Source: a virus
Taxonomy: Duplodnaviria > Heunggongvirae > Uroviricota > Caudoviricetes
Length of the DNA stretch: 64,000 nt
IMG/VR virus record: IMGVR_UViG_3300037423_001636
Coordinates: 1 to 64,000 of that record
Direction: 5' to 3' (one strand)
A program made the translations under genes and the position numbers. Below the pieces are notes generated by a model. That model saw only the letters and a program-made list of their open reading frames with translations. It made no database searches and was not told where the DNA came from. Shown piece after piece: positions 1-60,208 of the stretch (its first letter is position 1; every line of letters begins with the position of its first letter).

Positions 1-29
1 TATTCTTCGCGAGCTGCACCGTTGAACGA

Positions 30-254
30 ATGAGCATCGACGACAAAGTTTCTCAGGCCGCTCGGAATCTCTTTCGGCTGGAAAATCCCGACCGTAAGAT
101 GACGGGGAAGCGCAGGCGACGGGCGAGCTATTGGCTTCGGTTGTATAATCGGTATGAGCATCGCCAGCAACGCGAGTTTGCACGACGCGAGCTGTGGCCC
201 GCCATCCTCAAGGCTCTCGACGAGGGCAAAATCCAGTCCGTGACCATCCTTTAA
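30..254 (+). CDS. hypothetical protein
   Basis: 74 aa ORF bounded by junction motifs. Confidence 0.7.
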   Translation: MSIDDKVSQAARNLFRLENPDRKMTGKRRRRASYWLRLYNRYEHRQQREFARRELWPAILKALDEGKIQSVTIL

Positions 255-263
255 CCAGAATGA

Positions 264-530
264 ATGAAAACCGCACCGCTAATCAAACTCCATCGTGACG
301 AGACTTCGGAAATCGCGGGCGATTGCGAAATCTGGGTGAATCCCGCCCATGTCGTCTCTATCGAGCCGCAGAAGGTGCCTAATTCAGAGCCGTGCGCGTC
401 CATCGAAATGACAACCTTCCACTTCACCACGATGGAGAGCTACGCGTGGGTTGTTGAACAACTGACGGGTTACTCCGCCGATGAAGCATTTGGTATGAAA
501 AATTGCTGTAAAGCGAATGAACAGCTATGA
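264..530 (+). CDS. hypothetical protein (FlbD-like IWVNPAHVVSI motif)
   Basis: 88 aa ORF; motif resemblance only. Confidence 0.6.
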   Translation: MKTAPLIKLHRDETSEIAGDCEIWVNPAHVVSIEPQKVPNSEPCASIEMTTFHFTTMESYAWVVEQLTGYSADEAFGMKNCCKANEQL

Positions 531-781
531 AAGTTGTAACCGAATGGAAAGACGGCTGTGGTGCGACGCTATTTGAACACACACCGAAGCAACACGACAT
601 GGAGCGTTGGGAGGTTCGCGAACTGGCGGACCAACTCAACGCGCTCGTCGCAGAATGGGACGCCCGCAATCGCATGAAGCGGTTGAGCGATATTCTGGAC
701 CAGCACGCCCAAATTGCCGCCGAAGCTCGCGCGCTCATCCTCAAAGAAATCGCCGGCCTACCGCTCGTGGAGACACGGTGA
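527..781 (+). CDS. hypothetical protein, paralog of 28209-28439
   Basis: shared KRL..I.D.HAQIAAEAR..I / IL.EIAGLP. Confidence 0.75.
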   Translation: MKVVTEWKDGCGATLFEHTPKQHDMERWEVRELADQLNALVAEWDARNRMKRLSDILDQHAQIAAEARALILKEIAGLPLVETR

Positions 782-787
782 ACGAAC

Positions 788-943
788 ATGACTTCCAAGC
801 AGCACGTTTTGAAAAAGTATCCGAAGGCGAAATGCCGCTGGATTCCCGGCTGGGGACTCTACGAGGTAGAGGCGAACGGTCGCTGCCTCGCGACCGGATT
901 CAACGCACCTACGACATGGAAAACTGCCGCGAAGAAACTCTAG
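788..943 (+). CDS. small hypothetical protein (51 aa, MTSKQHVLKKYPKAKC...)
   Basis: translated by hand; fills the gap between two GAACGAA motifs; below the ORF-track cutoff. Confidence 0.7.
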   Translation: MTSKQHVLKKYPKAKCRWIPGWGLYEVEANGRCLATGFNAPTTWKTAAKKL

Positions 944-968
944 GCGAACGAACACTCCTTTCCCACCC

Positions 969-1211
969 ATGGATCACCGAAGCGCTACTCTGAGCAACTT
1001 GCATCACGCCTACGCGCAGACCGACGGCACGTATGCGTTCCCGAACAGTCGCGAAGGCGACATGCTCAAACAGGCGAAAAAGGAAATCGAACAACTCCGC
1101 GCCACGCTTGAAGAATGTCGGACCTGCGTGAACTGCATGACCCTGACCGGAGCGCACAATCGCAGCCATGCGGCCCGCGCTCACCAAGTTATCGACGAAG
1201 CTCTCGGCTAA
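969..1211 (+). CDS. hypothetical protein
   Basis: 80 aa ORF in array. Confidence 0.7.
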   Translation: MDHRSATLSNLHHAYAQTDGTYAFPNSREGDMLKQAKKEIEQLRATLEECRTCVNCMTLTGAHNRSHAARAHQVIDEALG

Positions 1212-1223
1212 CCGGGAACGAAT

Positions 1224-1328
1224 ATGCGCCGCAAACGGAAGTATCTCACCGCGCGCCAATCTCGCGCCCTCGAACGCGCGATCAACAACCTCGTCTACGG
1301 ATGGGGGAAGCGCCGCGCCCGACGTTGA
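1224..1328 (+). CDS. small basic peptide (34 aa, MRRKRKYLTARQSRALE...)
   Basis: translated by hand; lies between two GAACGAA motifs. Confidence 0.6.
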   Translation: MRRKRKYLTARQSRALERAINNLVYGWGKRRARR

Positions 1329-1337
1329 ACGAAACCT

Positions 1338-1511
1338 ATGGGCTCTTACGCATCACACCTTTCCGACCAAATCGCCGCTAAAGACGCGCGCATCGCCGAG
1401 CTTGAGCGCGAGAACGCCGAACTCCGTAAAGCCCTCGAATCGGCTCGCGATCAAATGCAAGACGCGGGGCTCTTCAACGGCCTTGTGGCCTATCACACGC
1501 GCAAAGGGTGA
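1338..1511 (+). CDS. small coiled-coil protein (57 aa)
   Basis: translated by hand: MGSYASHLSDQIAAKDARIAELERENAELRKAL... Confidence 0.65.
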   Translation: MGSYASHLSDQIAAKDARIAELERENAELRKALESARDQMQDAGLFNGLVAYHTRKG

Positions 1512-1515
1512 ACAA

Positions 1516-1683
1516 ATGCTCACAGACCGCGATAAATACACAGTGGAGGTTGCACGAGAAATCGGCGGATGGACCAACCAACAACGTGTCGAGTTTTTTG
1601 ACTACCTCACGGCCAACTTTTGCCGCGACTGCGGATGCGAAAAAGAGCCGGGGTATTCCTGCCACTGCACTAACGACGAGTAG
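1516..1683 (+). CDS. small Cys-rich protein (55 aa)
   Basis: CRDCGC...CHC C-terminus; ATG right after GAACAA. Confidence 0.65.
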   Translation: MLTDRDKYTVEVAREIGGWTNQQRVEFFDYLTANFCRDCGCEKEPGYSCHCTNDE

Positions 1684-1756
1684 AACGAAACCACTTCACC
1701 CCACTTCCAGCTCCAATCTTGTCCGCCGGGACTCCGCCGATCACCAACATTTCCCT

Positions 1757-26381: not shown

Positions 26382-26700
26382 CAACATCTCAATCCAGCGT
26401 AGGGCGAAGTCCCTATTGCGCCGAAAGCGCGAATCTGCTATATTCTGCTCACGATGAATCCCAAAAACACCATTCGAGTCACTCTCGCCTACAATCCAAA
26501 TGCCGGCGCTCTTGGGCGGTCTGAAAAGACACCTTATCAAATCACCAAGATTGTTGGTGCAGTCCGAACGAGCGCCAAAAACTCTCACGTGGGCGACTAT
26601 CTCACGGAGAATGAGGCTGTCTACCTGTCTATGGCAGCGGACACTGAGGTCACAGTTGTGCCGGCGAAAGGCTGACGGCCAATTCACATCCCCTCTTCAC

Positions 26701-27405: not shown

Positions 27406-27762
27406 ATGAAAAAGACGACCAAGAAAAAACGCACTACGAAGACCAAGACGTTCCGGGTCTGGCGTCCTGCCTATCGTCCGTTCATCCACGGCGGCAACGT
27501 CAATGCTCCGATCTGCATTGAAACGCCCGCCGATGAAATCCACACTGCAAAGGGATTCTCTGTCGGATTGATTCGCCATAAGGCCAAGACCCTCGTATTC
27601 TGCGCTGCAAGCGGTGGCGTCGTCGGTGACGATATCATGCAAGTGATGGACGATATCAAAACGGGCAAACCATCAGTGATTCGGAAACAGATTGCGCAGG
27701 CGAAGCGCGAAGGGGCCGACGCAATAGCGGTCACTCCTGACGAATTTTTCGGAGTGAAATAA
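27406..27762 (+). CDS. hypothetical protein
   Basis: 118 aa ORF. Confidence 0.65.
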   Translation: MKKTTKKKRTTKTKTFRVWRPAYRPFIHGGNVNAPICIETPADEIHTAKGFSVGLIRHKAKTLVFCAASGGVVGDDIMQVMDDIKTGKPSVIRKQIAQAKREGADAIAVTPDEFFGVK

Positions 27763-27804
27763 ATCCTTTCGTTAGTCCCTCAAATCCCCTTACAACTTTC
27801 CTTT

Positions 27805-28194
27805 ATGAAGACCCTCGAACAGATCAAGGCATACCCCGGCGGGGAGAACTGCAATCTCATCGACAGTCGAGATAAGAAACGCCTTCTGCAATTCCTGCCG
27901 GTCGAAAACTGGAAGGCACTCGGCTTTTCGCTGAAGGATGGCGCTGAAGTCCCGACCCCGACCCCGCTCACACGCGAAACCGTTCTTGAAAATCTCGCAA
28001 ACGACTTGGAGTTTGCATTCGAGAAGGCTCACAACAAGCGCGGCATCTCGGCGTCGCTCATGGGCGACGTTATCAAAATGTGGATGTGGATTCTCGACGA
28101 CGAGGAGTTGATGAGGCCGCCTGAGTGGAGCGACTATGGCATAGCCTACTTGGAACGCGTCGCGAAGAAATATAGCCTCCCTGTCCCGGCCTGA
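27805..28194 (+). CDS. conserved phage protein
   Basis: D.EFAFEKA..KRGISA..M. Confidence 0.7.
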   Translation: MKTLEQIKAYPGGENCNLIDSRDKKRLLQFLPVENWKALGFSLKDGAEVPTPTPLTRETVLENLANDLEFAFEKAHNKRGISASLMGDVIKMWMWILDDEELMRPPEWSDYGIAYLERVAKKYSLPVPA

Positions 28195-28208
28195 CCGGAA
28201 CGAAAATC

Positions 28209-28439
28209 ATGGACACTGCAACACTTCGACCCTCCGCAGTTGCGGCATTTAACGCCTTCGCTGAGGCACTGTCAGGCGAGCCCGAGATTAAGCGGCTGAC
28301 CGGCATTATTGACCGGCACGCCCAAATCGCAGCCGAAGCTCGCGTGCTCATTCACAACGGCGGCGCTGGCCCGAACAATGCCCAACTGCGGCGCGTGGAT
28401 TACATCCTCAGAGAAATCGCCGGTCTACCGCGCGAGTAA
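28209..28439 (+). CDS. hypothetical protein, paralog of 527-781
   Basis: shared C-terminal half plus 18 extra codons. Confidence 0.75.
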   Translation: MDTATLRPSAVAAFNAFAEALSGEPEIKRLTGIIDRHAQIAAEARVLIHNGGAGPNNAQLRRVDYILREIAGLPRE

Positions 28440-28450
28440 CATCGAACGAA

Positions 28451-28612
28451 ATGGACCCGTTTAAGCCTACTCTCCCAAAGATTCGCTGCCGATTTTGCAA
28501 AAGACTCGTCGGCGTATTTATCCCGGCCGGCGGCGATGGTTCCGCGTGGCTGTTTCGCAAACACAATATCAACCGGGGCGTCGTCTGCAAAGGCACACGG
28601 CGCGAAGCTTGA
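28451..28612 (+). CDS. small Cys/His protein (53 aa)
   Basis: translated by hand: MDPFKPTLPKIRCRFCKR...HN...C.GT; between motifs. Confidence 0.65.
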   Translation: MDPFKPTLPKIRCRFCKRLVGVFIPAGGDGSAWLFRKHNINRGVVCKGTRREA

Positions 28613-28622
28613 GAACGAAACC

Positions 28623-28790
28623 ATGCCTACCGACACTGAAATACTGAACTGGCTCGCGCTCCGACTTGAGAAAGTTGGCTGGACCGAGCTGGAGCTAGAC
28701 ATCGAAGCGGAGCGCGACGACTGCTCCGACAACTTCGGCGATGATTTTCGCCGTGCCGTCGCAAACGCGATGAAGGTCAACCCCAACTGA
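28623..28790 (+). CDS. small protein with TDTEILNWL...FRRAV motif
   Basis: between motifs. Confidence 0.7.
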   Translation: MPTDTEILNWLALRLEKVGWTELELDIEAERDDCSDNFGDDFRRAVANAMKVNPN

Positions 28791-28806
28791 CGGAACGAAA
28801 CCACCC

Positions 28807-29049
28807 ATGCCTAACGACATTCCTTTAGTTCGACTTAGCCGCGACTACACGCAATGCGGCCTTTCGGCAAAGGCCCGAAACAATGCCGTGCGTGATGCCC
28901 ACTGGGTCACAGCCTCTCCGCATGAGTGGGTTTGGACGCCGGAGCAGCAAGCCAACATGGCGCGCTACGTTCTATGGGCATCGCAACGACTCGAAGCCAT
29001 CCGGCAACTTGCGGCGGCCACGCCGCTGCTCCACGAGCCGAAAACCTGA
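28807..29049 (+). CDS. hypothetical protein
   Basis: between motifs. Confidence 0.7.
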   Translation: MPNDIPLVRLSRDYTQCGLSAKARNNAVRDAHWVTASPHEWVWTPEQQANMARYVLWASQRLEAIRQLAAATPLLHEPKT

Positions 29050-29069
29050 ACGAAACTTAAAGGCAGCCG

Positions 29070-29504
29070 ATGAATCCAACGCGACTAGGCATTAATAAAT
29101 GCGGAACCGGCCTCTGGGCATCTGAGCCAGTTCGCCGTCAGACATACGCCGAAGTTGAGTGGGTGACTTGGGACAAGGCGAAACCGTTCACAAGTAAGCT
29201 CTCTGCCGAGGATGTAATCCGAGGTTGCAATTTGCAGGACTGTGAAGTTTTACCGCTCGCAGACCCGAATCCCCGACCGCGCCTGAGCGAAACGACTATG
29301 GACAACGATACAGCCAAGGAAGCCGACCGCCGACTTTTGCGCATGAAGGCGCTTTACCATACTTGCATGTCGCAGGCGTGCTTTCGGCGCGAAGAAGCGG
29401 CGAAGGAAACCGAGGTTGACGAAGCGACCGCACTGCGGCGCGAGGCAACCGTGTTCGAGGAGTGTGCGGGCTGGCTCAAGGCCGCAACCGACGACTGCCG
29501 CTAA
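29070..29504 (+). CDS. hypothetical protein, possibly two fused micro-genes
   Basis: internal degenerate motif followed by ATG at 29298. Confidence 0.6.
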   Translation: MNPTRLGINKCGTGLWASEPVRRQTYAEVEWVTWDKAKPFTSKLSAEDVIRGCNLQDCEVLPLADPNPRPRLSETTMDNDTAKEADRRLLRMKALYHTCMSQACFRREEAAKETEVDEATALRREATVFEECAGWLKAATDDCR

Positions 29505-29515
29505 ACGGAAAATCT

Positions 29516-29707
29516 ATGCTCAACCCAACTGCCACTCCCGAGCCTTCCGCGACTGTGCATCGCGTTCATTTCGTCATTCCCGACGCCACAGACGATCCTG
29601 AATTGGAGACGCTTTCTGTGATGATGCAGGCACTGAACTGGAAGCTTAAGGGCGACCTGCCCGCGAAGCGCCGTATCGTAGATTACCTGCGCAGCCGTCT
29701 GGAGTGA
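29516..29707 (+). CDS. hypothetical protein
   Basis: between motifs. Confidence 0.65.
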   Translation: MLNPTATPEPSATVHRVHFVIPDATDDPELETLSVMMQALNWKLKGDLPAKRRIVDYLRSRLE

Positions 29708-29727
29708 GAACAAAGAAGCGTTTTGTG

Positions 29728-30081
29728 ATGAAGACGAATCTCATTATGTCTGCGAAATCGGCGGCGGCGTTGATCGATGAGCTAATAATCGCCGCTCCGG
29801 AAATTCGTGGGGCGGGTATCTGCCGCAAGCTGCTCGCGCGCTTGGATAGATTTGACGACCGCAAGCTGAAGGCAGCTATTGCCACTACAAGCCGATTAGA
29901 ACGAAGCTCTCGGCAGAAAAGAAACGTGATGCACTACACGACACCAACCACAGACGACAACATAGACCAGCGGGTGGAAGAGTGGCACGCGATCATCCCG
30001 AGCACCGTGCCGCTCCACGAGTGGCTAGGACTGACATGGGAACAATACGCCCGCTGGGGCGAGACGAACAAGCTGGGTTGA
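29728..30081 (+). CDS. hypothetical protein, possibly two fused micro-genes
   Basis: internal GAACGAA at 29899; C-terminal LHEWLGLTWEQYARW domain. Confidence 0.6.
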   Translation: MKTNLIMSAKSAAALIDELIIAAPEIRGAGICRKLLARLDRFDDRKLKAAIATTSRLERSSRQKRNVMHYTTPTTDDNIDQRVEEWHAIIPSTVPLHEWLGLTWEQYARWGETNKLG

Positions 30082-30090
30082 ACGAAAACG

Positions 30091-30495
30091 ATGAGCGACC
30101 ACAACGAGCGCGCCTGCACCTACTGCGGAAGTTTCCTGCACCATGAATCTGCGTGCCCACAGCGCGAAAAATCTATGAGCAACACACCCCGCACTGATGC
30201 AGTTTACGCGAAGGTTCTCGAATCAAACGAGGGCCACGCTGACGACCTAATTACTCTGGTTAACTTCACTCGCGGCCTTGAGCGCGAGCTGACGGCGCAA
30301 ATCGAAGGGCACAAGCTGACGGCAAAAGAGGCGTCGGAAGCCGCCGTGCTGCGCGCCGCTGATCGCAAACTACGCGCCGCCTTGGAGGACGCGGCAAAGA
30401 GCTGGGAAAAGGAAGCCGCCGACACCAACTGGAACGGCCACATCCGCTCCACCTACGACTCGTGCGCGAAAGACCTTCGCGAATTGCTACGCTGA
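30091..30495 (+). CDS. hypothetical protein (Zn knuckle fused to MSNTPRTDA-type coiled coil)
   Basis: internal start MSNTPRTDA. Confidence 0.65.
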   Translation: MSDHNERACTYCGSFLHHESACPQREKSMSNTPRTDAVYAKVLESNEGHADDLITLVNFTRGLERELTAQIEGHKLTAKEASEAAVLRAADRKLRAALEDAAKSWEKEAADTNWNGHIRSTYDSCAKDLRELLR

Positions 30496-30504
30496 GAACG
30501 AACC

Positions 30505-30831
30505 ATGCCTACCACGAAAAAGCGGAAGCCGATTTCAAACCGGGAGCTGAACGGGCTCATGCACGACGCGATGCTGCACCAACTCCTCGACCAGCTTGGA
30601 GCGCCGAAAGAACAGAGCGGCGGCGTGCTATCGCCATTTGGCCGGCTGCGGCGAATCGCGCCGGCACTTCTCGCGGACAAGGCGCGCATGGACTGGCTCT
30701 GCAAATTCACCGAGTTCCGGTTCCGCGTCTATGACTCGAAGGAGCGGAAATTCCTCACGGAGAACTTGGCGCAGGGCGTCGTCATCCGCCCCGTCGTTGA
30801 TGCCGCGATGGCGAAGTATCCCAACCCCTGA
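30505..30831 (+). CDS. hypothetical protein with DKARMDWL...DAAM motif
   Basis: between motifs. Confidence 0.7.
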   Translation: MPTTKKRKPISNRELNGLMHDAMLHQLLDQLGAPKEQSGGVLSPFGRLRRIAPALLADKARMDWLCKFTEFRFRVYDSKERKFLTENLAQGVVIRPVVDAAMAKYPNP

Positions 30832-30839
30832 GAACGAAA

Positions 30840-30995
30840 ATGCTCTGGAAATTCATCCATAATCGCTGCTGGTTCGGATTCTGGTGGGCGTCGATTTGCT
30901 CAGCTCACTACCACAACGATTCGAAGTGCTCGCGTTGTCGGTCTGGTTATTGGACACGCACCAATTCACCGCGCCTTTTTGGGCGCAAAAGATAG
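30840..30995 (+). CDS. small Cys/Trp-rich protein (51 aa)
   Basis: translated by hand: MLWKFIHNRCWFGFWWASICSAH...C..C..G.W. Confidence 0.6.
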   Translation: MLWKFIHNRCWFGFWWASICSAHYHNDSKCSRCRSGYWTRTNSPRLFGRKR

Positions 30996-31009
30996 CGAAC
31001 GAGTCTCCC

Positions 31010-31210
31010 ATGAAAATCGACCTACTGCCGTTCACCATCCCCAACTTTGTGCGTATGGCATCGAAGCCGGGTCTGCGCCAAGAGGGATTTAAGGAATCGC
31101 CAGCGTTTCCGTTGGCTGACGTTCCAGCGGAAGACCTCGCCGCGCTCTGCGACCAATTCCGCGCCGACGTGTTTGCGAAGGCAGGCAAGCCGGACCCCGC
31201 GAAGAAATAG
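31010..31210 (+). CDS. small phage protein
   Basis: PFTIPNFV...LCDQFRADVFAKAGK.DP. Confidence 0.7.
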   Translation: MKIDLLPFTIPNFVRMASKPGLRQEGFKESPAFPLADVPAEDLAALCDQFRADVFAKAGKPDPAKK

Positions 31211-31218
31211 GCGAACGA

Positions 31219-31434
31219 ATGCACGACGCCGAACAGTTCACCTCCGCCGCGTGGCAATCACTCAAGCAGCAATGCTGCGTGAATCCAGAGACCGCCGTGC
31301 GCTGCGTCATGGTTTCCGAAGAAGCCTTTCGCGCAGCTATGGAAAAGGTTCTCCGCGAACGCGCGGACTCTAATGAGGAAGAGTGCGGAGGTAGAAGGCC
31401 GCCTGCCAAAGGAAACGAAGGACAGGTGGATTGA
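31219..31434 (+). CDS. hypothetical protein
   Basis: last gene of array 2. Confidence 0.55.
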   Translation: MHDAEQFTSAAWQSLKQQCCVNPETAVRCVMVSEEAFRAAMEKVLRERADSNEEECGGRRPPAKGNEGQVD

Positions 31435-31545
31435 GTGGTGCCGCAGTGAGCGCGAGACTCCAGATTAGAATAGATTAGAATAAAATGGAATAGGGACAAC
31501 TCCCTATAGCATTCTAACGCAACATTCTGATAGACTGAACGTCTA

Positions 31546-31908
31546 ATGAACCAAGAACGACGCAATTCGCTTACGAATGCCGAAAAAGCCCTCGACAAGC
31601 TCCTCTCCCCAGAAGTGCTGGCAGCAATCGCGCTCGTACAGAATACGGCTGAAAAGCTGACCGAGTTGAAAGACAGTGTGTCCGAAATCCGCGACGCAGA
31701 GCAGGAGTCATATGATAACATGCCTGAGTCCCTGCAACAGACCGAACGCGGCCAAAATTCGTCGTCCGCCATTGAGGCGCTAGACGAAGCAGTGGACGAA
31801 CTCGACAATGCTGAAACCAGCTTGCAAAGTCTTGCCGCAACACTGGACGAAGTGCGAGAAAAGATCGATCAAGCAGTCGGGGCATTGTCGAATGCGGGCT
31901 CTTACTGA
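31546..31908 (+). CDS. helical-bundle phage protein
   Basis: EQESYDNMPESLQ..ERG; boxed promoter. Confidence 0.75.
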   Translation: MNQERRNSLTNAEKALDKLLSPEVLAAIALVQNTAEKLTELKDSVSEIRDAEQESYDNMPESLQQTERGQNSSSAIEALDEAVDELDNAETSLQSLAATLDEVREKIDQAVGALSNAGSY

Positions 31909-59011: not shown

Positions 59012-59317
59012 GTGTGTCAAACCCACACCGCCGTGCTTCTTGGCATCGCAGCAGAGTTATCCGCCCCACCCTCCAGCCCGACCAGCTTTCGGGAATTAAC
59101 AATGATTGCCAAAGCCGTGCGCGGCTACGATGTGATCGCAATTAGTCCCGAAGAAATGGTGAGTCTATACGCTAAGTGGTTTAGAGTATACGGGCTATTT
59201 GATTACGTAGACGATATCCTGAAACCCGGAGAAGAGGAGCTGACGGTCGAAGTTGATGGCGGACCCGGAGCGCGGCTCACCGTTCACAACGTGCAGATTG
59301 TGATTGGTCTTATTTAG
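59012..59317 (+). CDS. hypothetical protein
   Basis: GTG start after GTGTAATT motif. Confidence 0.55.
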   Translation: MCQTHTAVLLGIAAELSAPPSSPTSFRELTMIAKAVRGYDVIAISPEEMVSLYAKWFRVYGLFDYVDDILKPGEEELTVEVDGGPGARLTVHNVQIVIGLI

Positions 59318-59876
59318 ATTCGTAGGCTTCCCACAGCCGTCGAACGTCTCGGTGGAACCTCAGATGAGCCCGCTGATATGTGGACCCAAGTCTCGCCGCG
59401 ATCTGGTAGAAGCTCATGCCATCTCGCACGCGCCAGTCGAAAACCCGCCGGTCAGCTCGGTTGAGCGTGTTTCTAAAGTCTTCTATATCAGAAGGTGGCC
59501 AAGATTGGTCGTCCACAATATCTGGCTCCACTACCGTAATCTCCTCACCCCAACGGCTAGTCTGCACGACCTTCGTCCTTATCGGTCGCGCTAGCAACAG
59601 ATTGGTGCGCCAGCGGTGGCTCTTGACCCCGCGGGCCGGAAGACTACGACGCAGCGAGTTGAAGACGGAGTTGCGGACTATTGTAAATACCCAACTAAAC
59701 AGCTTGCCGCGATCTTTATCGAACTGGCCGCGCTTCTCAAACACGCGAATAATGGCTTCAGAGCGGATATCTTCCCATTCTTGGGACGGCAGTTTTACAT
59801 CGAGTAGCCGGCGTTGCATGGCACCGAAACAACGGGCAGCCATGGAAAACAGCTCTTGATCGTTTGTGCTGCTCAT
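59310..59876 (-). CDS. sigma-70/ECF-like RNA polymerase sigma factor
   Basis: region 2 EDIRSEA.IRVF....FD..RG...SW...IVRN; region 4 L...DRRVF......GMS..QIA..LG. Confidence 0.8.
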   Translation of the reverse strand: MSSTNDQELFSMAARCFGAMQRRLLDVKLPSQEWEDIRSEAIIRVFEKRGQFDKDRGKLFSWVFTIVRNSVFNSLRRSLPARGVKSHRWRTNLLLARPIRTKVVQTSRWGEEITVVEPDIVDDQSWPPSDIEDFRNTLNRADRRVFDWRVRDGMSFYQIAARLGSTYQRAHLRFHRDVRRLWEAYESK

Positions 59877-60208
59877 GCGCCACTCTTCTTCACCAGCTTG
59901 GCAAACCATGTGATGTTCTCGCAGCACCAGTTCCAGTAGCCCGCGTCATGCTTCTTGACCCAATCCCACTCTTTATTTTTGTGCTTCCCAAATGACATGA
60001 CCCGCTTTCCTCCAGCCGTGATCGGCGTAGCGCTCCCCGTTCCTTTCAACGCTTCCTCTGCCGTGATACGCTCCACTCCATTCTTACCTTCTTTTAAATC
60101 TTCAGCAGTAATCCTCGGCCCCTTTTTCCACTCGTCTGACTTCGGGCGCGCTTTGTCGGCCATGAATAGCCGAGCGGATTCACGGGCGGCTGGGTGGAGG
60201 TCAGGCAT
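59873..60208 (-). CDS. protein with ExoX C-terminal/DUF3820-like motif
   Basis: MSFGKHK.K....V...D.GY..W. Confidence 0.6.
   Translation of the reverse strand: MPDLHPAARESARLFMADKARPKSDEWKKGPRITAEDLKEGKNGVERITAEEALKGTGSATPITAGGKRVMSFGKHKNKEWDWVKKHDAGYWNWCCENITWFAKLVKKSGA

What the first reader, a model, noticed from the sequence alone, without database searches (positions are those of the whole stretch)
28198..31219. Cassette-like array of micro-genes punctuated by GAACGAA
Seen: 10 exact GAACGAA plus variants in 3 kb, one at nearly every junction. Across both arrays there are 16 exact copies in about 4.7 kb, where roughly 0.3 are expected for a random 7-mer. The motif overlaps or lies 0-4 nt after the upstream stop, but mostly 0-16 nt before the next ATG, so it tracks gene ends rather than behaving as an RBS. 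These junctions lack the ATGA overlaps and boxed promoters used elsewhere in the window. Three ORFs (29070, 29728, 30091) contain an internal motif followed by an ATG, as if two units fused in frame. Inference: the heptamer is the scar or core of a gene-capture or site-specific recombination system (it resembles the AAC core at integron attC R'' ends with the hairpin body missing). Alternatively it is an RNA processing or protein-binding site.
Basis: partly seen in the sequence, partly recalled or inferred. Interest (0 to 1): 0.8.

Follow-up and report, generated by a model that had tools for sequence, protein, structure and literature searches.

The report
Seven-base linker joining phage micro-genes
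In a 205-kb uncultured phage that does not use ordinary ribosome-binding sites, two rows of tiny unrelated genes are joined by the same bare seven-letter word, GAACGAA, placed right after each stop codon; two other phage fragments with different genes use the same word, so it is a real shared signal, but it is not an integron-type recombination site.

Summary
GAACGAA occurs 10 times on the + strand in 28198-31219 (0.23 expected, Poisson p 8e-14). A second array spans the circular junction of the 205-kb phage genome. Of 23 array junctions, 16 carry the exact heptamer and 5 a one-base variant. Nothing beside the 7 bases is conserved. The word starts -2 to +4 nt from the stop (once +8); the next ATG lies -1 to 67 nt further on.

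New here: two unrelated short metagenomic contigs (L140, L141) use the same heptamer at the same place between different genes. They share only parts of one gene with this phage. The arrays are also unusually GC-rich for their genome.

The integron reading fails. There are no hairpins and the junctions are 4-27 nt. The complete genome has no tyrosine or serine recombinase, reverse transcriptase or HUH transposase. A Shine-Dalgarno substitute and a promoter are also unlikely.

Best reading (about 0.5): a single-stranded RNA punctuation signal in promoter-less polycistronic operons of a leaderless-mRNA phage, with gene shuffling at the shared word as a side effect. The mechanism is inferred, not shown.

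This scan has noted conserved stop-to-start linkers in other phages before; those include a ribosome-binding site, this one does not.

The parts
28198..31219 (+). Array 2: 12 consecutive intercistronic junctions carrying GAACGAA or a near variant, between 13 small genes (27805-31434).
24..1689 (+). Window part of array 1. The array continues upstream across the circular junction to genome position 204587 (= L022:9419). Exact copies at 24, 780, 946, 1216, 1327 and 1683. Variants: GAATGAA at 258 and 515, GAACAAA at 1510.
28198..28204 (+). Exact linker, 3 nt after the TGA of 27805-28194 and 4 nt before the ATG at 28209.
28444..28450 (+). Exact linker, 4 nt after a TAA, abutting the ATG at 28451.
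28613..28619 (+). Exact linker directly after a TGA, 3 nt before the ATG at 28623.
28793..28799 (+). Exact linker, 2 nt after a TGA, 7 nt before the ATG at 28807.
29048..29054 (+). Exact linker overlapping the stop (TGAACGAA), 15 nt before the ATG at 29070.
29503..29509 (+). Degenerate linker (AAACGGA, 2 mismatches) overlapping a TAA, 6 nt before the ATG at 29516.
29708..29714 (+). One-mismatch linker GAACAAA directly after a TGA, 13 nt before the ATG at 29728.
29899..29905 (+). Exact copy inside ORF 29728-30081. It is preceded by an out-of-frame TAG (TAGAACGAA) and followed by an in-frame ATG, which looks like two units fused. The C-terminal half of the protein matches PHROG families on its own.
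29285..29291 (+). One-mismatch copy GAGCGAA inside ORF 29070-29504, with an out-of-frame TGA in junction position and an in-frame ATG 7 nt further on.
30080..30086 (+). Exact linker overlapping the stop (TGAACGAA), 4 nt before the ATG at 30091.
30496..30502 (+). Exact linker directly after a TGA, 2 nt before the ATG at 30505.
30505..30831 (+). Gene g9 (108 aa), the only array gene with relatives in other linker-bearing contigs. It is a mosaic: its N-terminal half resembles L141/L142/L143 proteins (80-87% identity) and its C-terminal half resembles the L140 protein (73% aa, 78% nt over 161 nt).
30832..30838 (+). Exact linker directly after a TGA, 1 nt before the ATG at 30840.
30997..31003 (+). 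One-mismatch linker GAACGAG, 1 nt after a TAG, 6 nt before the ATG at 31010.
31213..31219 (+). Exact linker, 2 nt after a TAG; its last A is the A of the ATG at 31219.
26400..26456 (+). Nearest upstream promoter module (CCCTAT box, then TCTGCTATAT -10-like element, then ATG). It is the likely start of the roughly 5-kb transcript that holds array 2; no promoter-like module lies inside the array.
31481..31548 (+). Next promoter module (palindromic box 31481-31516, then CTGATAGACT, then ATG at 31546). It closes array 2.
527..781 (+). Array 1 gene that is paralogous to array 2 gene 28209-28439 (41% aa). This is the only paralogue pair between or within the arrays.

Best explanation
GAACGAA is a cis-acting signal read on the single-stranded polycistronic mRNA. 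It punctuates cistrons in two long operons of small accessory genes that have no internal promoters. This phage uses no Shine-Dalgarno sites. It otherwise expresses genes either as leaderless mRNAs from about 30 private promoter modules or by ATGA stop/start overlap.

The mechanism I commit to is this. A sequence-specific factor for single-stranded RNA, from the host or a still unrecognised phage protein, binds at the heptamer just after each stop codon and most likely cuts there. The operon transcript would then be turned into units with very short leaders or almost none, the kind of mRNA this phage-host pair evidently translates well. A closely related non-cutting version, in which the bound factor promotes or represses restart of translation on the next ATG, cannot be separated from this with sequence alone.

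As a side effect, an identical word after every stop codon gives different phages a common register at which whole genes can be exchanged.

Shown: the placement, the strand bias, conservation of the bare heptamer across unrelated gene sets, absence of SD use, and absence of recombinases.

Inferred: that the signal acts at the RNA level, that there is cleavage or binding, and the identity of the factor.
For: 1. Strand and position. All 16 junction copies are on the coding strand, and the arrays have none on the other strand. They lie in or overlap the 327 nt of intercistronic sequence out of 5,392 nt of array.
2. Only the 7 bases are conserved. Flanking positions carry at most 0.46 bit over 30 copies from three sources. 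This is the size of a single-stranded nucleic-acid recognition word, not of a double-stranded DNA recombinase or repressor site.
3. The same heptamer has the same geometry in L140 (11 + strand copies in 4.4 kb, none on the - strand, all 11 within -2 to +4 nt of a stop). In L141, three of its four + strand copies in 1.56 kb start 1-2 nt inside a stop codon; the copy at 24 has no stop in the 23 nt of sequence before it. Their genes are otherwise unrelated to this phage's. So the word is maintained independently of gene content.
4. The arrays are not duplication products; there is one paralogue pair only.
5. The word is predicted to be less base-paired than control positions in the same transcripts (unpaired probability 0.63 against 0.43, p 3e-5).
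6. The genome shows no SD enrichment. Outside the arrays, 51 junctions are ATGA overlaps, the rest are G-poor spacers, and many genes sit directly behind a promoter. The arrays are therefore the one place where internal cistrons have neither device.
7. When the spacer after the word is long, it looks like the generic C/A-rich leaders of this genome. This fits the word marking the 5' edge of the next leader.
8. Copies also follow the last gene of an operon (window 1683; L140:86, and probably L141:24). One copy precedes a first gene (L141:696). A mark on both sides of each cistron explains this better than a pure start or a pure stop signal.
Against: - There is no RNA data.
- No candidate factor was found. 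There is no RegB, RegA or PemK/MazF match in the genome, although the RegA and RegB models matched nothing in the control genomes either, so those two searches are uninformative.
- The accessibility difference may merely reflect the A-richness of the word.
- Anchoring to the stop codon is equally what a 3'-attached DNA cassette boundary would show.
- Array 2's last gene (31219-31434) is not followed by the word, and most first genes are not preceded by it.
- Only three independent sequences carry the linker, and the other two were found through one shared gene, which is an ascertainment bias.
Confidence: 0.5

Rival explanations
1. DNA-level cassette boundary. The heptamer is primarily a recombination or insertion point: short microhomology for illegitimate or annealing-type exchange, or the target of an unknown strand-specific enzyme. 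Whole micro-genes, each carrying its 3' copy, would be gained, lost and swapped between phages at this point.
For: - The word is anchored to the 3' end of each gene while the distance to the next start floats (SD 2.6 against 11.9 nt). Integron cassettes with their 3' attC show the same geometry.
- It follows the last gene at three of four operon ends.
- Array genes are unrelated ORFans.
- Three sequences share the word but almost no genes.
- Array 2 is the most GC-rich 3.2-kb stretch of its genome (57.7% against 52.5%, top 0.1%). That is close to the 58% of L140 and L141, as if the arrays draw on a foreign gene pool.
- Fused-looking ORFs carry an out-of-frame stop plus the word inside them.
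Against: - Seven asymmetric bases with no flanking conservation and no dyad are far below what any known site-specific recombinase needs.
- The complete genome has no tyrosine or serine recombinase, reverse transcriptase, or IS200- or IS91-type transposase.
- Microhomology can exploit the word but cannot explain why it exists.
- The one datable exchange, the mosaic g9, has a breakpoint in mid-gene and not at a linker.
- No close relatives were available, so no breakpoint could be mapped.
Confidence: 0.2
2. Translation restart or ribosome-recruitment element of the Shine-Dalgarno kind. The heptamer would pair with ribosomal RNA to place the ribosome on the next ATG.
For: - It sits before an ATG at every array junction, and all 22 next starts are ATG.
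- The phage lacks ordinary SD sites.
- In SD-using phages the equivalent small-gene junctions carry a repeated AAGGAG linker, for example L025.
- L141:696 lies in a 5' leader, 4 nt before a first ATG.
Against: - The spacing to the ATG runs from -1 to 67 nt, and about a third of the copies lie within 1 nt of it. That is incompatible with SD-type positioning.
- The word is absent from all other gene starts of the same genome.
- A scan of 185,579 species genomes found no 16S 3' tail in which the complement TTCGTTC replaces the CCTCC anti-SD. All 17 matches were in the spacer downstream of a normal tail.
- Copies occur after last genes, with no downstream gene.
Confidence: 0.07
3. Relic without function. 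The word is simply inherited from an ancestral junction that was copied when the arrays grew by tandem duplication.
For: - One paralogue pair links the two arrays (28209-28439 and 527-781), and both copies keep the word after their stop.
- Several junctions share the first codons after the word (ATGCCTAC/ATGCCTAA).
Against: - All other array genes are unrelated to each other.
- Flanks are not conserved at all while the 7 bases are exact in 16 of 23 junctions. Neutral decay would not spare just these bases.
- The same word is found in two contigs with different genes.
Confidence: 0.08
4. Mini-promoter for a phage RNA polymerase or phage sigma factor in front of each micro-gene.
For: - The phage encodes a sigma-70 family protein (59310-59927, - strand).
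- The rest of the early region uses one promoter per gene.
Against: - Fourteen of 22 copies end 4 nt or less before the ATG, so a start site some 7 nt downstream of a -10-like word would fall inside the gene.
- No conserved second element lies upstream.
- No RNA polymerase beta-type gene was found.
- Another recurrent motif, CGTGTAAAT, is the more obvious candidate for the phage sigma.
- The promoter scan finds nothing above chance in the array.
Confidence: 0.03

Closest known systems
PeSLs (promoter-early stem-loops) of T4-type phages (Arbiol et al. 2010, PMC2839356; Comeau et al. 2014, PMC4122927)
   Same: A short conserved regulatory element repeated between small, mostly ORFan accessory genes in hyperplastic regions. 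The element serves expression, and recombination between copies shuffles genes.
   Different: PeSLs are composite elements, a sigma-70-like promoter plus a terminator stem-loop. The element here is a bare heptamer with no promoter and no hairpin, inside a polycistronic unit. Shuffling at it has not been observed. This genome also has a separate 45-bp palindrome-plus-promoter module, which is the closer PeSL analogue.
RNase III processing sites between the early genes of phage T7 (own knowledge, not checked in a paper here)
   Same: Intercistronic marks that cut a long early polycistronic mRNA into single-gene messages. They occur between cistrons and at operon ends.
   Different: T7 sites are large double-stranded hairpins cut by host RNase III. 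Here there is no structure, so a single-strand-specific factor would be needed. Cleavage is hypothetical.
T4 RegB endoribonuclease (cuts GGAG in early intercistronic regions) and RegA translational repressor (own knowledge)
   Same: A short single-stranded word shared by the initiation regions of many early phage genes and recognised by one phage factor. It defines a regulon.
   Different: RegB's word is the SD itself. GAACGAA is not SD-like and is anchored to the stop. No RegA or RegB homologue was found, but those searches had no positive control.
Integron attC sites
   Same: A 3'-attached element at the end of each promoter-less cassette, with variable distance to the next start codon and arrays of unrelated genes in one orientation.
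   Different: attC sites are 57-141 bp imperfect palindromes that fold as hairpins and need an IntI tyrosine recombinase (own knowledge). Here there are 7 bases, no dyad and no integrase.
Boundary or 'linker' sequences of the modular theory of lambdoid phage evolution, and the stop-plus-RBS linkers noted earlier in this scan (e1-3410815, e1-1964165)
   Same: A conserved stop-to-start junction between swappable small phage genes.
   Different: Those linkers are 15-95 nt and contain a ribosome-binding site at fixed distance from the start. This one is 7 nt, has no SD, and is fixed relative to the stop.

Membership tests
Integron (attC cassette array) | Each cassette ends in an attC site: an imperfect inverted repeat (R''-L''/L'-R') tens of bases long that can fold as a hairpin. 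| tested here: not met
   Junctions are 4-27 nt in total. The inverted-repeat search over 27700-31600 finds three pairs, none at a junction. There is no conservation outside the 7 bases.
Integron (attC cassette array) | An IntI-type tyrosine recombinase and an attI site adjacent to the array. | tested here: not met
   PF00589 finds nothing in the complete 205-kb genome, while all 14 control genomes match. Resolvase, RVT_1, Y1_Tnp and Y2_Tnp also find nothing.
Integron (attC cassette array) | Cassette gain and loss with breakpoints at the recombination core. | not testable with these tools
   No close relative is retrievable.
PeSL-type mobile regulatory cassettes | A sigma-70-like early promoter joined to a terminator stem-loop between small genes. 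| tested here: not met
   There is no promoter-like or terminator-like site above chance in the array and no hairpins. Such modules do exist elsewhere in the window (26400, 31481) but not at GAACGAA junctions.
PeSL-type mobile regulatory cassettes | Recombination between copies documented by comparing close relatives. | not testable with these tools
   No close relatives are available.
Shine-Dalgarno-type ribosome-binding site | Complementarity to the 3' tail of 16S rRNA. | tested here: not met
   GAACGAA is not complementary to CCUCC. No genome among 185,579 species carries TTCGTTC in place of the anti-SD. The host itself is unknown.
Shine-Dalgarno-type ribosome-binding site | A narrow spacing, about 4-9 nt, to the start codon. 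| tested here: not met
   The spacing is -1 to 67 nt with SD 11.9 nt, and about a third of the copies lie within 1 nt of the ATG.
RegB/RegA-type early-mRNA regulon (T4) | A phage-encoded RegB or RegA homologue. | tested here: inconclusive
   PF10715 and PF01818 find nothing, but they also match none of the control genomes, so the search has no positive control.
RegB/RegA-type early-mRNA regulon (T4) | A short single-stranded word shared by the intercistronic regions of many early genes and cut or bound in vivo. | not testable with these tools
   The shared word is shown, with higher predicted accessibility. Cutting or binding needs RNA data.

The most novel reading that the evidence does not exclude
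GAACGAA is the recognition word of an undescribed single-strand-specific RNA endonuclease or RNA-binding factor. The factor would punctuate promoter-less phage operons into near-leaderless messages. That would be a hairpin-free counterpart of T7's RNase III sites, used by a group of phages whose hosts translate without Shine-Dalgarno pairing. Because every cassette then ends in the same word, it would double as the register for gene exchange among these phages.
Probability: 0.22. Interest if true: 0.8.

Novelty: new variant of a known kind. Interest (0 to 1): 0.55.

Why it matters
How internal genes of an operon get expressed in bacteria and phages that do not use Shine-Dalgarno pairing is poorly understood. 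This phage offers a natural contrast within one genome: leaderless genes with private promoters, ATGA-coupled genes, and two operons that use a bare 7-base word instead.

If the word is a processing or binding site, it points to an unknown sequence-specific RNA factor. It would also give a compact insulator between cistrons that could be tested in synthetic operons.

If it is mainly a recombination register, it would be the shortest phage gene-shuffling linker described so far.

In either case the word is a practical marker. It predicts true gene boundaries of micro-ORFs that gene callers miss or mis-start, and it flags related accessory-gene arrays in metagenomes.

Tried and rejected
- **Close relatives for breakpoint mapping.** DNA search of the phage collection found nothing. 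Protein-seeded scans of IMG/VR with g0, the 255-aa neighbour, g8 and the terminase gave only distant phages without the word. The 5.8-billion protein search with g0 gave at most 60% identity, and its contexts L023 and L025 lack the word.
- **Pattern scans for analogous arrays in IMG/VR.** Two triple-motif patterns returned only coding tandem repeats, iteron clusters and CRISPR-like arrays.
- **Profile-seeded scans with the g9 family.** Scans of metagenome, viral and genome collections gave no confirmed relative.
- **Homologues of L140 genes.**
  - L236-L238, L239, L240 and L241 lack the word.
  - The genomes holding L236-L238 also have no match to this phage's terminase.
- **Array 1 paralogue family.** It has no homologue outside this genome.
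- **Known families.** Pfam matched none of the ten array proteins tested. PHROGs matched only g0 and the C-terminal half of 29728-30081. Rfam found nothing.
- **Anti-motif partner RNA.** TTCGTTC-like words in non-coding parts of the genome are scattered, and none is compelling.
- **General 'AAACC' upstream motif.** Occurrences are scattered and do not form a positioned signal.
- **Host identification.** The nearest cultured terminase is 27% identical, and the Atlas neighbours of the DNA polymerase are viral. The host stays unknown.
- **Literature search for the word itself.** It returned only primer sequences.

Full report
**What the sequence is**

The window is the first 64 kb of a 205,168-bp virus record. 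Its first and last 127 bases are identical, so the unit genome is 205,041 bp, either circular or terminally redundant. The record is rated 100% complete. It has 52.5% G+C and about 310 genes, mostly on the + strand. These include a T4-type large terminase, a DnaE-type polymerase, a ribonucleotide reductase and one sigma-70 family gene.

The nearest cultured terminase is 27% identical, so the host is unknown.

Start codons show no Shine-Dalgarno enrichment. Genes are expressed in two visible ways. Many sit 5-10 nt behind a promoter module (box, -35-like element, extended -10), which implies leaderless or near-leaderless mRNAs. Many others overlap the previous gene: 51 ATGA-type overlaps. The remaining short spacers are G-poor with no shared motif.

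**The observation**

GAACGAA occurs 24 times in the window, against 12.5 +/- 3.2 in shuffles. Sixteen copies lie on the + strand in two clusters.

Genome-wide, the + strand has 31 unique copies. Seventeen of them lie in 5,392 nt of array and 14 in the other 199.6 kb. That background rate predicts 0.23 copies for array 2, where 10 are seen (p 8e-14). It predicts 0.15 for array 1, where 6 were scored (p 1.4e-8).

- Array 2 runs from the stop of 27805-28194 to the start of 31219-31434.
- Array 1 runs from genome position 204587 across the junction to window position 1689.
- There are 23 junctions. Sixteen carry the exact word and five a one-base variant (GAATGAA, GAACAAA, GAACGAG). One carries a two-base variant and one is an ATGA overlap.
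- The next start is always ATG.
- Aligning 30 copies from three sources shows no information outside the seven bases (at most 0.46 bit).

The word starts -2 to +4 nt from the end of the stop codon, once at +8, and often shares its GA with TGA or TAG. The next ATG follows -1 to 16 nt later, once at 67. Over 33 junctions the two standard deviations are 2.6 and 11.9 nt.

**The genes**

None of the ten array 2 proteins tested matches Pfam. Only the first gene (phrog_5706) and the C-terminal half of 29728-30081 match PHROG families.

All-against-all comparison finds a single paralogue pair, 28209-28439 with 527-781 at 41% identity. The arrays are therefore not tandem duplicates.

Two ORFs look like fusions of two units. 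In 29728-30081 there is an exact TAGAACGAA with the TAG out of frame. In 29070-29504 there is a TGAGCGAA, again out of frame. Each is followed by an in-frame ATG.

**Relatives**

The proposed test, gene gain and loss at the word, could therefore not be run.

A homologue search with gene 30505-30831 (g9) did lead to two short assembled contigs that use the same word in the same way.

- L140 (4,410 bp, 58% G+C) has 11 + strand copies and none on the other strand. All 11 lie -2 to +4 nt from a stop. It also has two GAACGAC variants at further junctions.
- L141 (1,559 bp) has four + strand copies.

The only sequence these contigs share with the phage is half of g9. The C-terminal half is shared with L140 (73% aa, 78% nt over 161 nt). 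The N-terminal half is shared with L141 (86%). Other contigs with g9 relatives or with relatives of L140 genes lack the word.

The heptamer is thus a shared junction syntax of at least three otherwise different phage sequences. This argues for function or mechanism rather than chance or descent.

Array 2 is also the most G+C-rich 3.2-kb stretch of its genome (57.7%, top 0.1% of windows). Array 1 is in the top 4%. Both are close to the composition of L140 and L141, which hints that the arrays draw on a different gene pool.

**Copies at operon edges**

The word follows the last small gene of array 1, where the next ATG is 67 nt away. It follows the last + strand gene before a convergent gene in L140 (position 86). 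It probably does the same before a terminator-like hairpin in L141 (position 24).

In L141 it also lies 4 nt before the first ATG after a divergent promoter region (position 696). There, however, a 221-codon open frame on the same strand ends exactly at that copy, so the gene model is ambiguous.

Array 2's last gene is not followed by the word, and most first genes are not preceded by it.

**What it is not**

- *Integron-type site.* There are no inverted repeats at junctions, and the junctions are far too short. No tyrosine or serine recombinase, reverse transcriptase, or IS200- or IS91-type transposase is found in the complete genome, and the control genomes responded.
- *Shine-Dalgarno substitute.* The spacing to the ATG is too variable and often zero. 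The word is absent from all other starts in the genome. No genome of 185,579 species has the complement in place of the anti-SD.
- *Promoter.* Most copies are too close to the ATG. Nothing upstream is conserved, and the phage has no RNA polymerase beta-type gene.
- *Known RNA family.* None matched.

**What it most likely is**

The element has a clear profile:

- it is a bare heptamer;
- it occurs only on the coding strand;
- it occurs only between cistrons of two operons that lack internal promoters;
- it is predicted to be more single-stranded than its surroundings (0.63 against 0.43, p 3e-5);
- it is kept exact while everything around it changes.

This profile fits a word read on single-stranded RNA. 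Where the spacer after the word is long, it resembles the generic C/A-rich leaders of this genome. The word therefore looks like the 5' edge of the next gene's leader and the 3' edge of the previous gene.

I read it as a punctuation mark on the polycistronic mRNA. My preferred mechanism is cutting by a sequence-specific single-strand endonuclease. Cutting would yield short-leader messages of the type this phage otherwise makes directly from its promoter modules. A non-cutting version, in which a bound factor controls restart on the next ATG, is about as likely. Together I give these about 0.5. None of this is shown, and no candidate factor was found.

The main rival is a DNA-level cassette boundary at which genes are exchanged by short homology (about 0.2). 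It fits the 3' anchoring, the ORFan content and the odd composition. It cannot by itself explain why the word exists. The one visible exchange, the mosaic g9, has its breakpoint in mid-gene.

The two readings are compatible. In T4-type phages a regulatory element (PeSL) doubles as the crossover point (PMC2839356).

**Novelty**

Conserved linkers between small phage genes are known: PeSLs, lambdoid boundary sequences, and several stop-plus-RBS linkers noted earlier in this scan. This one differs in four ways:

- it is only seven bases;
- it has no structure, promoter or ribosome-binding site;
- it is fixed to the stop codon rather than to the start;
- it belongs to a phage that does without Shine-Dalgarno sites.

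I rate it a new variant of a known kind, of moderate interest. It would become clearly interesting if RNA ends or a binding factor were found.

Noticed in passing
window 1-127 and genome 205042-205168 (L022:9874-10000): The record's first and last 127 bases are identical, so the genome closes on itself (unit length 205,041 bp). Array 1 spans this junction, and copy 205065 is the same site as window 24.
   Followed up: yes
whole genome: There is no Shine-Dalgarno enrichment before start codons. Fifty-one ATGA-type stop/start overlaps were counted. The remaining leaders are G-poor and C/A-rich. At least three promoter-like motif classes sit directly upstream of ATGs: CCCTAT-box plus TCTGCTAnAnT, TTGACA plus TATACT, and CGTGTAAAT.
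   Followed up: partly
window 59310-59927 (- strand): This is the only sigma-70 family gene of the phage (Sigma70_r2, E 3.6e-9). No RNA polymerase beta-type gene was found, so late transcription probably redirects the host polymerase. The CGTGTAAAT motif is a candidate target.
   Followed up: no
window 30505-30831 compared with L140:3706-4023 and L141:1196-1537: Gene g9 is a mosaic. Its N-terminal half, with the core LGAPKEQSGG-LSPFGRLRRI, is 80-87% identical to proteins whose C-terminal halves are different. Its C-terminal half is 73% identical to a protein with a different N-terminal half. The recombination breakpoint therefore lies inside the gene.
   Followed up: partly
window 28195-31434: Array 2 is the most G+C-rich 3.2-kb stretch of the genome (57.7% against a mean of 52.5%, z 2.5, top 0.1% of windows). 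Array 1 is in the top 4%.
   Followed up: partly
L140:96-360: A small - strand gene is followed by a divergent control region with two copies of a TGCACAGTGTGCA-type palindrome, just before the first + strand gene. This looks like a repressor/operator switch at the head of the linker-bearing operon, so that phage may be temperate.
   Followed up: no
L141:32-697: A 221-codon + strand open frame begins 1 nt after one GAACGAA and ends in TGAACGAA at the next. It overlaps two more protein-like - strand ORFs (81-293 and 290-571). Which strand is coding here is unresolved.
   Followed up: partly
L090:3800-4400 (IMGVR_UViG_3300032038_000088): A dense cluster of about 20 GAACGAAGG words within 600 bp, looking like iterons or a replication origin. 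It is unrelated to the linker arrays.
   Followed up: no
L188:890-3000 (IMGVR_UViG_3300028595_000016): A regular 38-bp periodic array of about 26 units containing GAACGAATGACA. It looks like a CRISPR-type repeat-spacer array on a viral contig.
   Followed up: no
L240:7950-15000 (JGI 3300045993 contig): Another phage without Shine-Dalgarno sites. A repeated TTCTTATTTACTTTT...TATGCT promoter-like module ends about 7 nt before the ATG of several small genes, so it has leaderless modules like those of this window but no GAACGAA.
   Followed up: no
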